DNA from: Desulfobacterales bacterium
GTDB lineage: Bacteria; Desulfobacterota; Desulfobacteria; Desulfobacterales; UBA5616
Reading direction: 5' to 3'
NCBI GenBank assembly: GCA_046483495.1
Contig: JAWODC010000049.1
Span: 1-64,000, forward strand
DNA length: 64,000 nucleotides
Position numbers: made by a program. Of this stretch, positions 1 through 6,000 are shown piece after piece. Within the stretch, counting starts at the first letter, position 1. Every line of letters starts with the position of its first letter.

Positions 1-3000
1 GCTAGTCAAGCACTCATATGATTTTTTTATCCCTCCGCTCTGCCATGCCTGAAAATCGAATGGTAACCCTAAACCGCCTGCGGAATCGGTTGCCGGATAA
101 GACAGACCACTGTGTTCTGAATGGAAGACGACTCATTCACGTTATGCATCCCGGCCGTTCGGGGGGCAAATCGACGGAAGAAGGTTTTCGGGTGAATTCC
201 GGGAAACCTGTAAACCGCCAAACCAACGGTTTTTTCATCGATTTCCGGCGCAGGCGGCTCCGGGGGCGTCACTCCGGAGACGTCCTGCGATTCGGCCGAA
301 TGTTGCAGCAGCCCTTCCAGTGCCTTGCTAAAGATCATCATTTCGTGATTGTTATTGTTTCGGACCGGCACCGGCGAAATATGCCATAGAGGAGCCGGCG
401 GCTTTTCCGCTGTGTCCCGGTTTTCCAACAAATGGGTGATGACGCTTGTACTGTCTGTGGCATAAACCGTATATTCTTCGGGGTCATTCAAGTGGAGTAT
501 CGACCAGGACCGCATCCGCTCCGATACCATGTACTCGCCCAAATCCGCCTGCGCATCACCTCGGCCGGCAGATAAAAGCCGCTCGAGTTTTTCCGGCTCT
601 CCTTTCAATCCGTCATATAGATCCTGTTCCATTTGCTCGATAGTCATCAGTCTGTCCATTGCGGTGATTTCCTGGGCATCATGCTCTTGTGCCAATGCCA
701 GAAACAATCGAGCGACAAAAACATCGTCAACGGGGGTCTCTGTTGGAGCCTCCGCCCCGATTCTTTTTTTTATGTCCGCCTTTATTCTCGACACCGCGGT
801 GTCACTGTAAAAGGGAACGGGGCTGCGGCGGGCCGTTAGAAAAGCCGTGGATCGGTCATCATGGATATTCGCCCAGTTTTTGTATGCTTTCAATACTGAC
901 GCCAGCCGATCTTCATCGCCGGAAACCGGCGTTTTCACGTATACGGGCTGGTCTTCCCCGGAAAGGGAAACATCGTTTTCGGTGGCATATCCAATACCGT
1001 ATACCACGGTTTGGGAGAAAAACGAGTTCAGCCGTTTGGCGGCTTCAGCCGACAGGGTCGTAAATGGAAAATATAACGATTTCATGACATTTCATCTAAT
1101 TTTGGATCCAGCAAGGTAATGCCCATGGATTTGAGCTGATCACGTATCTGGTCGGCGCGTTCGAAATTTTTTTCTGTCCGCGCCCGGTTTCTTTCGGCGA
1201 TCAGTGCCTGTACATCGGATCCCGGTGGTGTATCTGAAAAGTCAAATACTTGCAGTACGGCATCGATCTGTTTGAAGGCGTCTACGATTTTGAGTGCATC
1301 CTGACCGTTGATGCAATGGTCCGAAATCAAATGGTTTACCTGACGCACCTTTTTAAAAATCGATGCTAGTGCAGCGGAAACATTGAGATCGTCGTCCATA
1401 GCGGCAATAAATCCGTGGCGGAGGTCGTAGATGATCTGGTCCAGCTCATCCAATGGAGGTGCCTGGGCATCCAGACGCATCAGGGTCTGTATTACCTGAT
1501 CGAATCGCCGCAATCCGCGGGCGGCATTGTCCAGACGATTTTTGGAAAACGTCAACGGTTTGCGATAATGCCCGGACAGAAGCCAATACCTCACCTCCCT
1601 GCCCGAGTACCCTGAATGATAGAGCGTTTCCAAGGTCAACCGGTTGCCGTTTTCCCCGATCTTTTTGCCGTTTACCAGGACCCGTTCGCAATGGATCCAA
1701 TACCTTGCCGGAATTTTTCCGGTGACAGCCCGGGCGATGGCGATTTCATTCTCGTGATGGGGAAAAACCAATTCGCGGCTGCTCGCGTGGATATCATAGG
1801 TTTCACCCAAATATTTCATCGCCATGGCGGCACATTGAATGTGCCACGACGGCCGGACATTTCCCCACTGGGTTTTCGAGAAAATCCCCCGTCGAAGTTC
1901 GGACAGCTTGGTTCGCTTGAACAAGGTGAAATCACGAGGATTATCCTTTTCATAATCATCTAAATCGACAGTGGCGCCCACCCTTATCTTGTCGATATCG
2001 ACGCCTGAAAGCCGGCCGTAATCGGAAAACCGGGATATGTCGAAGTACAGCGATTTCAACTTTTCATAGGCATATCCCTTCTCAACCAGTTTTCGGGCCA
2101 TCCGGATCATATCGTCGACATGTTCACTGGCTTTGGGGTAATGATCCGCCGGTTTGATGCGAAGTGATTCAAGATCTTCCATGAACGCCCGAACATAATG
2201 CCGGGTAAATTCCGGCAAATCGATGCCTGCTTTTTCAGAGCCTTGAATCGTTTTGTCGTCCAGGTCGGTGACATTCATGACATGCTTGACCGAAAGGCCG
2301 CGATATTCAAGATACCGGCAGAGCAGATCGGAAAAGACGAATCGACGACACTCGCCCAGGCCCATTCTGGCGTGAACGGTGGGTCCGCAGGAGTATACGG
2401 ACACCTTGTGGGGCGTTATGGGAACGAAGGTCTCTTCGGTACGCGACAGGGTGTTGAACAGCTTCAATCCGACTTTTTCTTTGACGGCAAAAAGCGGCGT
2501 ACTTAAGTACCGTTCCCCGCCGTCCGGCAATATGACCACCAGCGTGCCCCTGTCCATCCGGCGCGCCTGTTTTATCGCGGCAAACATTGCGGCCCCGCTG
2601 CTCATCCCTACAAAAAGCCCTTCCTCTTTGGCCAGTTGCCGGGCGGTTTCGTAAGCATCTTCATCATCGATGTTGATGATGTTATCCAATCTTTTTTTTT
2701 CGTAAATTTCAGGGACGTATGCTTCTTTCATATTTTTGAGGCCCTGAATTTTGTGCCCCAGGTACGGCTCCACGCCGATAATGTGAATGTCAGGGGCCAA
2801 TTCCTTCAGTCGCCGGGACAACCCCATCAGGGTGCCTGTTGTTCCCATGGTCGCTACAACGGCGGAAAGGCGGCCCCCGGTTTGACGCCAGATTTCTTCG
2901 GCAGTGCCATGATAATGAGCCTTCCAATTGGCCTCATTGTTAAACTGATCCGTCATGAAATACCGATCGGGGTTCTCGCGGGCCAGGCGATAGACTTCCT

Positions 3001-6000
3001 CGATGGCGCCGTCCGTCCCTAAGTGGCCGGGTGTCAGAAGGATTTCGGCGCCCCTGGCTTTCAAGATTTTTTGGCGTTCCAGGCTGGCGGCCTCGGACAT
3101 CACCAGCAGCAGCCTGTAATTTTTAACGGAACAGACCAGCGCCAACCCGATGCCCGTGTTGCCGCTGGTTGCCTCGATGACGGTTTTGTCAGGTGTGAGT
3201 TTGCCGGAGGCCTCTCCGGATTCAATCATGTAAAGTGCCGCACGGTCTTTTATGGAGCCGCCGGGATTGAGATATTCAACCTTGGCGAATATCGTAATAT
3301 CGGGGTTTGGGTTTACTTTCCGAATTTCGACCAGCGGTGTATTTCCGATGGTGTCTAATATTGACATGTGCATGTGGCAAGTACCTTTAATATTTCGTTC
3401 CAAACCCCGTCTTCATTTTGGGATGCATCGATAATTCTGAATCTGCGGGGTTCGGCGGCGGACAGCGTCAGATACCCCTCCCGGACGCACTGGTGAAAAT
3501 CGATTTTTTCTTTTTCGAACCGGGTTTCCCCGTCGGGGCGGTCCCCGGAGTGCACGGCATGCCAGGCCCTTTCAAGTCCGATTTTCGGGGGCAGGTCCAA
3601 AAGAAAGGTTATATCAGGCTTCCGATCTTCCAATATCACGTGGTGAAGTGCGGCAATCAGATTCATATCCAGCCCTCTGGCATGTCCCTGATAGGCGAGG
3701 GTGGCATCGAAAAACCGGTCACAAACAACGGTTTTCCCGCTTTTCAATGCGGGACTGATGATTTCCCGGACATGCTGCGCCCGATCCGCCATATACAGAA
3801 GCAGTTCCGTCATGGGATCCATTTGGTGGTTTTCGGCATCCAACAGAATGGACCTGATTTTTCGGCCGATCGCCGTCCCCCCGGGTTCACGGGTGGTGAT
3901 GCATGTCCGTCCCTCACGGGTGAAATAATCAACCATTCGTTTCATCAGAGTGCTTTTGCCGGATCCTTCGATGCCCTCAAGGGTGATAAATAGTGCCCGC
4001 TTATCGTTTTGCATAAAATTGTCTTTCCAGCAACCGGTGATAGGGTGTCCAGTTTTCTCCGGATACTTCGGATTCCATGAATTCCCGAACACCGTTTACC
4101 TTGGCATCGATTTCATCGATATAATTCAGCAGTATGGCTTCGATGGTTTTCGGGGGCTCGGGGGATCCGAACTCGCGTGAACCGTGATGACTTACGATCA
4201 TGTGCTCGATCAGCTGCTCCGTTTCCGCGGGGAATTGCCGTAGAGTCGCGATTTTTTCCCGAACCATAAGAACACCGATGACGATATGGCTCAACAAGCG
4301 CCCCTCATCTGAATAGTCGATTGCGGTTGAATACGTCAATTCCCGAGTTTTTCCAATATCGTGCAAAACAGCACCGGTGATCAGCAGCTCCCGATCGACA
4401 CCGCCGTAATGACCGGCTGTTTTTTCCGCCAAAAGCGCTGTTGAGAGGGTGTGTTCGAGCAGCCCTCCCAGGTAGGCGTGGTGCATTTTTTTGGCGGCGG
4501 GTGCCGTCTTAAACCGGTTTACAAACTCGGCATCCGCGTAAAAAGCCTCGAGCAAGGACTTCAGGTGAATATTTTCAAACGTGTTCGAGATCTGCCGGAG
4601 CCGCTCGAACATTCGCTCGATGTCCCGGTCGGTGGACGGCAAAAAATCCGAAGGGTCGACATCTTGGGCATCGCAAGGCGAAAGAACCTTTATAACCAAT
4701 TGGGGGGCCCCCCTGTACTCGGAGATGCTTCCCGTTAATCGAACGTAATCGCCTGATGCAATGGTGTGGCCGATCTCGTCCACACCGTCCCACATGACAC
4801 CCTTCAGAGAACCGCTCTTATCCGAAATCGTGACGGACAGATAACAGTTGCCGTCTTTTTTGTGGGATATCATCTTTTCGGCCAACACAAAAATGTCCTC
4901 GACGACATCCCCGGCTTTCATATCTTTTATAAAAACAGTTTTCATCATTTCTTTCGCAGCTGATCATCTATCGCCTTAGAACCATTGTTTCAACTCGTCC
5001 AGCAGGCGGTAATCCGTCATGTCGCACTTGATCGGGGTAATAGATATATAATGGTCGCAAATCACCCGGCCGTCAATATCCGGATGTTCATACCAAGGAT
5101 CGGAATCGCAACCGTGCCAGTAATACACGCGTTTTCTGGGATCTTCCCGCTTTTTGAAGTATTCATCGAAAAACTGGGTGCCCTGCCGGCTGATCCGAAT
5201 CCCTTTCGTGTCTTTTACGGCCATATTGGGCAGGTTGATGTTTAAAAAAGTGCCGAAAGGCAGCCCCCTGTCTGCCACCCGGTCAATGACCGTCTCGACG
5301 AATTCGGCGGCCTCGGCAAAATTGGAGCTGTCGACGGGGGCTTGCATGGAAACCGCAATGGCGTTAATCCCATACAGCGCCGCTTCTTTAGCCGCGGCTA
5401 CGGTCCCCGAGTAGTTTAGATTGACACCGACATTGGCGCCTGAATTGATCCCGGAAACGACCATATCGGGCTTTTCTTCCAACAGCTCCAGCAGGCCGAG
5501 CTTGATGCAGTCCGCCGGGGTGCCGGAAATGCTGTAGGCCGGCCCTTTGCCGTCGAGGTGAAGTGTGGCGGCCCGCAGCGGGGTGTGGAGCGTGATGCCG
5601 TGCCCCACCGCACTCTGCTCCTGTTCAGGCGCTGCAATAACCACGGCGTTTTTTGCGGCCAGCCGGTTGTGAAGAGCCCATAGTCCCTCGGCATAGATGC
5701 CGTCGTCATTTGTCAACAAAATATTCATAAAGCAAAAGCGTTTTTGTGTCCTTTGAGAGAACCTATAGCCCAACTCGCCAAGATTTTAAATGCCGAATAT
5801 TCGAAAAGTATGGCTTGATTTTTTGGCACCGGTAATTTTATATGGAATATCTTTTCGTTTATCAAGCTGTTAATTTCCACTTGGAAACGGATGATCAACG
5901 CTGTGCAAATCGTGCACGAATCGACTATTCGAACTCCCGTTACGCGGAAAGGTCAACACATGCGACGCAGTCTGTTGCCGGTCTCTTTTCCGGTCATTCT

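What a model noticed while it worked through the whole genome (the two positions that open the first line are those of the whole stretch)
1082..3373. Sole cysteine synthase fused to an ATP-motif-dead CysRS
g00886 (763 aa) joins a full-length CysK/CysM-type cysteine synthase (the only one found in the genome) to a full-length cysteinyl-tRNA-synthetase body whose cysteine/zinc pocket and anticodon-binding domain are intact but whose two ATP signature motifs are conservedly ruined (HIGH to HxGE, KMSKS to KVDEQ); a normal CysRS (g00101) is encoded elsewhere. Boldest reading: the CysRS half no longer charges tRNA but is a cysteine- and tRNA(Cys)-binding sensor or hand-over module bolted onto cysteine synthesis, coupling sulfide assimilation to the charging state of tRNA(Cys) (or an ATP-independent cysteine persulfide synthase like CARS). 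New would be a pseudo-aminoacyl-tRNA synthetase as built-in r [...]
Evidence so far: pfam.tsv: PALP 6-284, tRNA-synt_1e 316-618, DALR_2 655-707, CysS_C 720-753; NCBIfam TIGR01136 (model cover 1.00) and TIGR00435 (0.98) on one protein. Alignment with canonical g00101 and 116 fused homologues: CGPT 115/116, WHIQC 115/116, HHENE 103/116 kept; HIGH column HVGE/HLGE/HPGE/SLGE/GLGE (0 of 116 HIGH); KMSKS column KVDEQ/KVDEH/KVDET (0 of 116 KMSKS). One open frame without stops in 120 of 301 sampled Desulfobacterota genomes, 78 of 201 genera. Six-frame search of the assembly: cysKM model over its cut-off only at C21:2489-3358 (372 bits, next 85), cysE model (cut-off 211 bits) no hit above 40 bits; no SepRS-like Swiss-Prot hit. 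Full-text search for such a fusion found nothing.
(Added by a program. Inside this text positions count along the whole contig: contig position 1 is position 1 of the stretch shown here. "Call 12" and the like, gene names such as g00115 and contig names such as C1 are that model's own, and its searches are not shown. The text may have been shortened before it was handed on; [...] marks where a part breaks off. The agent that wrote the report below was given it as the finding of a first reader that could run no searches.)

Follow-up and report, generated by a model that had tools for sequence, protein, structure and literature searches.

The report
Cysteine-making enzyme with tRNA-reading pseudoenzyme
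This gene joins a cysteine-making enzyme to a copy of the cysteine tRNA-charging enzyme that has lost its ATP-handling parts but kept the residues that read cysteine tRNA, so it may switch cysteine production according to how much of that tRNA is empty.

Summary
Real and widespread. Window 1082-3373(-) is one 763-aa frame: a CysM-type cysteine synthase plus a full CysRS fold, found in 120 of 301 sampled phylum genomes; 78 of 80 carriers tested also hold a separate CysRS.

In 105 diverse fusions all four zinc ligands survive in only 58, while five anticodon-domain residues survive in 105. What is kept is tRNA reading, not ATP use, and not always the cysteine pocket.

The synthase half probably uses O-phosphoserine: Lys213, serA/serC present, and no serine acetyltransferase here or in five closed genomes.

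Two further forms turned up: a split two-gene form (13 of 13 loci adjacent) and Nanoarchaeota/Woesearchaeota-labelled fusions with intact motifs (18 clusters).

Best reading (0.5): a HisZ/GCN2-like module that tunes the synthase through tRNA(Cys). No biochemistry was done. The scan noted this family before on other DNA (8 notes shown).

The parts
1082..3373 (-). Fused gene, 763 aa (start may be the second ATG at 3367). Its start overlaps the end of the upstream dTMP kinase gene, and its stop overlaps the start of the downstream gene.
   Evidence: 761-aa database form P0002
2486..3361 (-). CysM-type PLP sulfhydrylase domain (residues 5-296), inferred O-phosphoserine sulfhydrylase
   Evidence: fold match 2bhs/2jc3 TM(target) 0.96; K42, SGNTG, Q143, G177-T178, G180-T181, S258 in 105 of 105
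3248..3250 (-). Lys42, PLP Schiff-base lysine
   Evidence: 105 of 105
3155..3169 (-). TSGNT loop, residues 69-73 (binds the free carboxylate of the substrate; role recalled)
   Evidence: T69 89, S70-G71-N72-T73 105 of 105
2990..3001 (-). E125-x-x-Y128 on helix 116-133: family-specific patch, candidate contact for the pseudo-CysRS
   Evidence: 105 of 105 fusions and 4 of 4 split-form CysM against 4 of 30 stand-alone relatives; helix
2735..2737 (-). Lys213, at the position of Arg210 of enterobacterial CysM and Arg220 of the mycobacterial O-phosphoserine sulfhydrylase
   Evidence: ungapped alignment to 2bht/2jc3; equal-length match to 3dki/3dwi, alignment not printed; 105 of 105; role of Arg220 recalled
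2471..2485 (-). Short linker (residues 297-301); the split form breaks here
   Evidence: low pLDDT block 291-300
1499..2470 (-). Pseudo-catalytic CysRS Rossmann and CP domains (residues 302-625)
   Evidence: purifying selection
2351..2362 (-). GLGE in place of HIGH/HIGN
1649..1663 (-). KIGEN in place of KMSKS
1772..1786 (-). ASSRE in place of the GGGxD adenylate loop
   Evidence: G530 in 0 of 105 fusions against 31 of 31 canonical
1745..2389 (-). Zinc/cysteine ligands C329, C514, H539, E543 (E. coli C28, C209, H234, E238), all present in this protein
   Evidence: numbering; counts; C28/C209 as zinc ligands from PMC5660078, H234/E238 recalled
1883..1978 (-). Remodelled CP-domain loop with the family-specific LxELKxG insertion (residues 466-497)
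   Evidence: R487, G496 105 of 105; L490 96, L493 99, K494 103
1253..1411 (-). DALR helical bundle (residues 655-707)
   Evidence: D662 105, N664 95 of 105
1106..1216 (-). Anticodon-binding domain with R728, R732, F737, D741, R744, D756 (E. coli R423, R427, W432, D436, R439, D451)
   Evidence: numbering; 105 of 105 with R/K at 732; R427-G34 contact from PMC4536326

Best explanation
The N-terminal half is a working PLP cysteine synthase that condenses O-phosphoserine (from SerA/SerC) with sulfide to give free cysteine. The C-terminal half is a CysRS-derived pseudoenzyme: it cannot activate cysteine with ATP, but it still docks tRNA(Cys) by the GCA anticodon and, in most lineages, may also hold zinc and cysteine. 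It packs against the synthase near helix 116-133 and sets its activity: most likely on when uncharged tRNA(Cys) is bound, off when the tRNA is charged or cysteine is abundant. Such control makes sense because the O-phosphoserine route has no serine acetyltransferase step for cysteine feedback and draws on a serine precursor in a sulfide-producing cell. SHOWN: fusion, folds, pattern of loss and retention, selection, gene content, split form. INFERRED, with my odds: synthase active 0.9; O-phosphoserine as substrate 0.75; no charging by this protein 0.9; tRNA(Cys) binding 0.75; allosteric coupling 0.5; direction of the effect is a guess.
For: ATP site gone in four places: HxGH 0, KMSKS 0, G530 0, Q546 0 of 105, against 31 of 31 canonical. 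A separate CysRS is present in 78 of 80 carriers, including all ten single-contig genomes (motifs read in 30 of the 73 full canonical hits). The pseudo-catalytic domain is under purifying selection: dN 0-0.16 against dS 0.15-1.94 in 18 of 19 pairs, 1 saturated. Anticodon residues are kept in 105 of 105, also in 21 of 21 that lost C329. tRNA-free CysRS chains in the PDB are resolved shorter (375-410 residues for 1li5, 1li7, 3tqo, 6ujd, 8qhp) than the tRNA complex 1u0b (461), consistent with a domain ordered by tRNA rather than self-stabilising (inference). O-phosphoserine: K213; serA and serC over cut-off in this genome; no cysE, metX, transsulfuration enzyme or SepRS; dsrA present. In 80 carriers the acetyltransferase tracks a SECOND cysteine synthase: both 36, neither 41, discordant 3. 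Five of five closed acetyltransferase-free genomes lack metX and transsulfuration and have serA beside a class V aminotransferase. The halves stay together when split: 13 of 13 stand-alone pseudo-cysS loci have a same-subfamily cysM abutting upstream, and E125/Y128 mark fused and split CysM alike. Predicted complex (CysM dimer plus pseudo-CysRS 302-711): weak support, 0.52 against best control 0.00; runs agree in at least 93% of contacts; partner pLDDT at least 85. The mark was reached by 116 of 157 solved and 2 of 215 mismatched pairs, but at 0.60 or under by only 18 solved and by both mismatches; my own alignments were used and the job is unlike the calibration.
Against: No binding or activity data. 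Arg/Asp conservation in the anticodon domain could be structural. Single-chain pTM is only 0.63, so the pose between the halves is not fixed. Stand-alone CysM relatives with the same Lys exist in genomes with no acetyltransferase hit (G042, G200, G226), so the module is not required for this route. The same Lys is also common in stand-alone relatives (110 of 120), and Campylobacter CysM uses only O-acetylserine (PMC9855970), so the CysM label does not prove the substrate. 36 of 80 carriers also have an acetyltransferase plus CysK route. 9 of 105 fusions keep HxGN plus KMSRS and might retain some activity. No separate CysRS was found in G146 and only an anticodon-less paralog in G136 (both 95% complete). 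Kin are not independent in any of these counts.
Confidence: 0.5

Rival explanations
1. HisZ-like subunit with no tRNA role: the dead CysRS is an activating or oligomerising scaffold that mediates feedback by free cysteine (or sulfide) at the zinc site; the anticodon residues are kept for folding.
For: C329/C514/H539 are kept in 84 of 105 and all four ligands in 107 of 120 nearest sequences. HisZ precedent (PMC10795190). Family-specific invariant patches on both halves.
Against: 13 of 105 lose both cysteines yet keep every anticodon residue. A 40-residue terminal domain should be dispensable if unused, yet none of the 105 full-length fusions lacks it (they were selected as full length; G012 ends at residue 588).
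Confidence: 0.18
2. Tether or hand-over: the module holds tRNA(Cys) next to the synthase so that new cysteine is passed to the canonical CysRS, or the PLP site works on a tRNA-bound amino acid as SepCysS does.
For: Fusions with fully intact CysRS motifs exist in 18 clusters, several labelled Nanoarchaeota/Woesearchaeota, which suggests a benefit of physical coupling. The transsulfursome with its adapter SepCysE is a precedent (PMC8762117).
Against: The free-carboxylate site (SGNT, Q143) is invariant, which argues against an ester substrate (role recalled). No SepRS in the genome. A tRNA held by the dead domain would be shielded from the canonical CysRS, which uses the same surfaces (inference). 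No conserved gene neighbourhood among 105 loci.
Confidence: 0.14
3. An atypical but active second CysRS (bifunctional enzyme).
For: TIGR00435 over cut-off; full fold, TM(target) 0.86 to 1u0b; zinc ligands intact here; 9 of 105 keep HxGN plus KMSRS; databases call it cysteine--tRNA ligase.
Against: This protein has GLGE, KIGEN, ASSRE and lacks W485 and Q546; these positions are invariant in 31 of 31 canonical enzymes and the matching motifs are kept in 18 of 18 intact fusions. The columns drift freely across the family.
Confidence: 0.08
4. Decaying relic: only the synthase matters and the CysRS half is a passenger.
For: The helical bundle is variable (mean column conservation 0.42); one carrier has a frameshifted copy and one a truncated one (G239, G012).
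Against: dN far below dS in the pseudo-catalytic domain; 41 of 323 columns at 95% or more, including new family-specific ones; retention as a separate adjacent gene after a split.
Confidence: 0.06
5. ATP-independent cysteine persulfide synthase, as reported for CysRS/CARS2.
For: The reported activity does not need the zinc cysteines (PMC5660078); the host makes sulfide.
Against: It needs the lysines of KIIK and KMSK (PMC5660078). Here the motifs read KTIQ and KIGE; pairs are kept in 6 and 0 of 105.
Confidence: 0.04

Closest known systems
HisZ with short-form HisG (ATP phosphoribosyltransferase)
   Same: A catalytically inactive aminoacyl-tRNA synthetase paralog partnered with an enzyme that makes its own cognate amino acid; it activates and mediates feedback (PMC10795190, passages read). 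The split form found here mirrors the two-polypeptide arrangement.
   Different: HisZ is a class II HisRS paralog that senses the free amino acid. This is class I, usually fused, acts on the last rather than the first step, and its most strictly kept ligand site is the anticodon reader. No homology is claimed.
GCN2 HisRS-like domain (recalled; appeared only as a search term)
   Same: A synthetase-like domain that binds uncharged tRNA and controls a fused catalytic domain.
   Different: Eukaryotic kinase, class II fold, senses many tRNAs. Here a bacterial metabolic enzyme and, by inference, one tRNA species.
Class I CysRS (E. coli 1LI5/1U0B; closest solved sequence 8QHP), HIGN/KM[SA]KS subtype
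   Same: Whole fold, 33-37% identity, zinc ligands and anticodon residues. The fused halves form one clade (SH-aLRT 100) that branches with the HIGN subtype, not with the host's own HIGH-type CysRS.
   Different: HIGH, KMSKS, the GGG loop, W485 and Q546 are lost; LxELKxG insertion; N-terminal synthase.
CysM / O-phosphoserine sulfhydrylase (enterobacterial 2BHS/2JC3; mycobacterial 3DKI)
   Same: PLP fold, active-site residues, CysM-type loop with a basic residue at 213.
   Different: Below the cysM equivalog cut-off (350.7 of 394.2); Lys rather than Arg; carries a pseudo-CysRS where many stand-alone relatives in the phylum carry a CxxCPP tail; no conserved sulfur-carrier gene nearby.
SepRS-SepCysS-SepCysE transsulfursome
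   Same: Couples O-phosphoserine, a PLP enzyme and tRNA(Cys) (PMC8762117, passages read).
   Different: There the chemistry happens on the tRNA and SepRS is active; here there is no SepRS, a different PLP enzyme family, and an intact free-carboxylate site.
MshC (CysRS paralog, mycothiol ligase)
   Same: CysRS paralog with a role outside translation (PMC2922099, passages read).
   Different: MshC adenylates cysteine and works without tRNA; this is the mirror image. TIGR03447 179.9 bits against a cut-off of 485.1.

Membership tests
Active class I CysRS | Rossmann, CP, helical-bundle and anticodon domains | tested here: met
Active class I CysRS | HIGH/HIGN motif | tested here: not met
   GLGE; HxGH 0 and HxGN 11 of 105
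Active class I CysRS | KMSKS with the second lysine | tested here: not met
   KIGEN; K574 in 2 of 105 against 31 of 31
Active class I CysRS | GGGxD adenylate loop and Gln of IAQS | tested here: not met
   ASSRE; G530 0 and Q546 0 of 105
Active class I CysRS | Zinc ligands C28, C209, H234, E238 | tested here: met
   present in this protein; 58 of 105 family-wide; H234/E238 roles recalled
Active class I CysRS | Anticodon residues R427, D436, R439 (plus R423, D451) | tested here: met
   105 of 105, R or K at 732; R427, D436, R439 named in PMC4536326, R423 and D451 recalled
Active class I CysRS | Aminoacylation of tRNA(Cys) | not testable with these tools
   needs an assay
CysK/CysM cysteine synthase (TIGR01136) | Model over cut-off, PLP lysine, substrate loops | tested here: met
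   368.9 bits over 344.15
O-phosphoserine sulfhydrylase | Basic residue at the Arg220-equivalent position | tested here: met
   K213, 105 of 105; not diagnostic alone; role recalled, literature search returned nothing
O-phosphoserine sulfhydrylase | Genome makes O-phosphoserine and has no known route to O-acetylserine | tested here: met
O-phosphoserine sulfhydrylase | Turnover of O-phosphoserine | not testable with these tools
   needs an assay
HisZ family | HisRS (class II) paralog partnered with HisG | tested here: not met
   class I CysRS fold; analogy only
HisZ-like mode of action | Physical contact with, and allosteric control of, the biosynthetic enzyme | tested here: inconclusive
   weak predicted complex, 0.52 against best control 0.00; split form adjacent in 13 of 13; allostery untested
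CysRS-type persulfide synthase (CPERS) | Lysine pairs of KIIK and KMSK | tested here: not met
   6 and 0 of 105; PMC5660078
SepRS/SepCysS pathway | SepRS in the genome | tested here: not met
   24.4 bits against a cut-off of 380.65
MshC | ATP motifs kept, model over cut-off | tested here: not met

The most novel reading that the evidence does not exclude
A bacterial biosynthetic enzyme switched directly by the charging state of one tRNA: a class I pseudo-synthetase reads the GCA anticodon and the free or acylated 3' end of tRNA(Cys) and opens or closes the neighbouring O-phosphoserine sulfhydrylase. This would be an enzyme-level counterpart of T-box or GCN2 sensing. It would be derived from an active synthase-synthetase fusion of the kind that survives in Nanoarchaeota/Woesearchaeota-labelled proteins, and would work in cis (fused) or in trans (split).
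Probability: 0.35. Interest if true: 0.87.

Novelty: new variant of a known kind. Interest (0 to 1): 0.7.

Why it matters
It names the probable sole cysteine source in about half of the carriers tested (43 of 80 have no other cysteine synthase hit), in a phylum central to the sulfur cycle. It also explains how they can make cysteine without a serine acetyltransferase, and it flags a large family that databases label as an ordinary tRNA ligase. If the tRNA link is real, it is a new way to couple amino-acid synthesis to translational demand. Natural variants make it directly testable: intact, half-eroded, zinc-less and split forms all exist.

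Tried and rejected
Literature. Searches looked for the fusion and found no description: 1, 0, 1, 1 and 1 papers. 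I read passages of PMC2922099 (12 of 15 places) and PMC8762117 (12 of 19 places); PMC9026213 and PMC2700814 I saw only as listings. The library lacks most subscription papers and I read no supplements, where such a fusion could be tabulated. One search found no paper to confirm the Arg220/Lys214 determinants, which remain recalled. One search (22-residue query) found nothing.

Neighbourhood. No partner family recurs in more than 10 of 105 loci, and the clusters follow kinship; the tmk/yhaM/surE context is local to this order. Promoter and terminator counts equal the shuffles. No Rfam hit in window 1-20000, so no T-box detected.

Anticorrelation with cysE. 3 of 120 carriers against 63 of 181 others looked strong, but I dropped it as an argument: 54 carriers have a sub-cut-off acetyltransferase hit and kin are not independent.

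Origin of the fusion. One origin for the intact archaeal-labelled fusions and the dead ones is neither shown nor rejected. The best trees place stand-alone proteins between them, but AU p is 0.50 and 0.10. All trees are quick trees; the careful search did not finish.

Reads. Logan contigs only. One RNA-library contig spans the junction (2419-2610) without differences, but this does not show transcription, and shares were small.

Own error. In some searches I counted H540 as the zinc histidine; numbering shows it is H539, and the counts were redone.

Not tested. Whether the intact archaeal-labelled fusions are their genomes' only CysRS, and which organisms carry the split form.

Full report
Observation. 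Window 1082-3373 on the minus strand is one open frame of 763 residues. It lies in a tightly packed run after surE-, yhaM- and tmk-like genes and before a 338-aa gene of no known family. Pfam gives PALP 6-284, tRNA-synt_1e 316-618, DALR_2 and CysS_C. Both TIGR01136 and TIGR00435 pass their cut-offs. An AlphaFold2 model from 138 sequences has mean pLDDT 90.7 and pTM 0.63. It matches CysRS structures (TM by target 0.92 to 8qhp, 0.86 to the tRNA complex 1u0b) and CysM structures (0.96), and none of the listed chains covers both halves. The genome has no other cysteine synthase, one tRNA-Cys (GCA, U73), a canonical CysRS on C7 and a third, anticodon-less paralog on C27.

Spread. 120 of 301 phylum genomes give one match across both halves. 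All 80 best named GTDB loci are fused in one frame; titles are nearly all Desulfobacterales or Deltaproteobacteria and include Desulfonema magnum. I fetched 107 of the 120 carriers; 13 close relatives of fetched ones were left out. 105 were full length and form my working set; two partial carriers, two broken or cut loci and one non-fused CysRS were dropped.

What the CysRS half has lost. Among 105 fusions: HxGH 0, HxGN 11, KMSKS 0, KMSRS 22, both HxGN and KMSRS 9; G530, W485 and Q546 0 and K574 2, all against 31 of 31 canonical enzymes. 78 of 80 carriers searched hold a separate CysRS: 73 full canonical-type hits (motifs read in 30), one cut by a contig end, one frameshifted, one fragment beside an HIGN-type gene, and two intact HIGN/KMAKS-type genes. 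None was found in G146 and only an anticodon-less paralog in G136, both 95% complete. Charging is therefore neither likely nor needed.

What it has kept. dN is far below dS in the pseudo-catalytic domain in 18 of 19 pairs, one saturated, so it is no relic. The four zinc ligands are present here and in 107 of 120 nearest sequences, but in only 58 of 105 diverse ones; the Cys-Cys-His triad is in 84, and 13 lack both cysteines. By contrast R728, R/K732, D741, R744 and D756 are in 105 of 105, including all 21 that lost C329. They map to E. coli R423, R427, D436, R439 and D451. R427 contacts G34, and D436 and R439 were targeted as anticodon residues (PMC4536326, passages read; PMC13449415, passages read, for anticodon and U73 as identity elements); R423 and D451 are recalled. 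New family-specific invariants sit around the old active site and CP loop (R344, R487, LxELKxG). The constant is tRNA reading; the cysteine pocket is common but dispensable. The persulfide-synthase lysine pairs (PMC5660078, passages read) survive in 6 and 0 of 105.

The synthase half. PLP and substrate residues are invariant, including the loop that binds a free carboxylate (role recalled), which argues against a tRNA-linked substrate. Lys213 aligns with Arg210 of enterobacterial CysM and, by an equal-length match, Arg220 of the mycobacterial enzyme. That enzyme uses O-phosphoserine (PMC12910592, passages read); the role of Arg220 is recalled. This is not diagnostic: Campylobacter CysM uses only O-acetylserine (PMC9855970, passages read). 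Gene content is stronger evidence. This genome has serA, serC and dsrA and no cysE, metX, transsulfuration enzyme or SepRS. Of 120 carriers, 3 have cysE over cut-off, 54 a sub-cut-off hit that I read as a long-type acetyltransferase (my label), and 63 none. In 80 carriers that hit goes with a second cysteine synthase: both 36, neither 41, discordant 3, with the two genes side by side in at least ten. Five of five closed genomes without it lack metX and transsulfuration and have serA beside a class V aminotransferase. The acetyltransferase serves another CysK, and the fusion most likely runs on O-phosphoserine. Kin are not independent in these counts.

Do the halves work together? A profile search found stand-alone pseudo-CysRS proteins. 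In 13 of 13 such loci a CysM of 59-64% identity to the fused half ends 0-13 bases before the pseudo-cysS start or overlaps it, with differing junctions; the other 67 loci of that scan were 64 fusions and three cut or frameshifted ones. Split CysM nest inside the fused clade (SH-aLRT 97), and E125 and Y128 are in 105 of 105 fused and 4 of 4 split against 4 of 30 stand-alone relatives. They lie on helix 116-133, part of the lobe that moves on substrate binding (recalled). A predicted complex of a CysM dimer with the pseudo-CysRS gave weak support: 0.52 against best control 0.00, runs agreeing in at least 93% of contacts, partner pLDDT at least 85. The mark was reached by 116 of 157 solved and 2 of 215 mismatched pairs, but at 0.60 or under by only 18 solved and by both mismatches, and the job is unlike the calibration.

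Origin. The fused CysRS halves are one clade (SH-aLRT 100) that branches with the HIGN/KM[SA]KS subtype rather than the host's own enzyme. Eighteen clusters, five of them labelled Nanoarchaeota, Nanobdellota or Woesearchaeota, carry a CysM-CysRS fusion with H[IV]GN, KMSKS and TGG[IV]DL intact in 18 of 18, at up to about 49% identity to the dead family. Whether this is the ancestral state or a second fusion is open (AU p 0.50 and 0.10).

Mechanism. Most likely (0.5) the pseudoenzyme is a tRNA(Cys)-reading regulatory module on an O-phosphoserine sulfhydrylase. It would supply the control that the acetyltransferase step gives elsewhere (cysteine feedback on that step is established knowledge, recalled). 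Rivals: cysteine-only HisZ-like control 0.18, tether or on-tRNA chemistry 0.14, active CysRS 0.08, relic 0.06, persulfide synthase 0.04. Against the best reading: no ligand data, a loose pose between the halves, and stand-alone relatives that manage without the module.

Known and new. It works like HisZ, a catalytically inactive synthetase paralog that activates its partner and mediates feedback (PMC10795190, passages read; PMC9734150, passages read), and possibly like GCN2 (recalled), but it is a member of neither, and it fails membership as an active CysRS. Searches found no description of the fusion; that library omits most subscription papers and I read no supplements. The scan has noted this family on other DNA: look-alikes in 57 windows, 8 notes shown, all AI notes and unchecked. 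The split form and the intact archaeal-labelled fusions do not appear in the lines shown to me. Verdict: real, new variant of a known kind, interest 0.7.

Noticed in passing
G000:C27:77590-78912 (L002:7654-8910): Third CysRS paralog in this genome: keeps HLGN and KMSKS but has WNIQD and HHDYT in place of two zinc ligands and no anticodon domain; possibly a tRNA-independent ligase for another amino acid. It lies between an NADH-dehydrogenase-like gene and ABC transporter genes.
   Followed up: partly
P0134, P0292-P0308: CysM-CysRS fusions with all catalytic motifs intact, several labelled Nanoarchaeota/Woesearchaeota; candidate bifunctional cysteine synthase and tRNA ligase.
   Followed up: partly
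L256-L268; P0128, P0132, P0135: Split two-gene form in high-GC metagenome contigs; in L256 a ThiF/MoeB-like gene follows directly. Contexts of P0132 and P0135 were not seen.
   Followed up: partly
L238, L240, L242-L247, L249-L253: Stand-alone sister CysM proteins in non-carrier genomes end in a CxxCPP tail where the fusion begins; possibly an alternative control or sulfur-handling element.
   Followed up: no
P0191; L123:829-2979: P0191 is a serine-acetyltransferase-like domain fused to an intact CysRS (711 aa; read by eye). The canonical CysRS frame of G091 is similarly long (717 aa), its N-terminal part not examined.
   Followed up: no
L151-L154 (family f30): HIGN-type CysRS with a C-terminal extension of about 250 residues that looks glycosyltransferase-like by eye.
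   Followed up: no
P0133: 858-aa protein with two CysRS-like units in tandem, the first degenerate or partial.
   Followed up: no
window 69-1085 (-): 338-aa gene with no Pfam or NCBIfam hit, overlapping the fusion's stop; it follows the fusion in 7 loci of this order.
   Followed up: partly
L110 (G239), L099 (G012): One carrier has the fusion in two frames and one has a match ending at residue 588; sequencing error or decay not told apart.
   Followed up: no
L235: A record titled Methanococcoides sp. holds the fusion at 55% identity; probably a misbinned contig, not checked.
   Followed up: no
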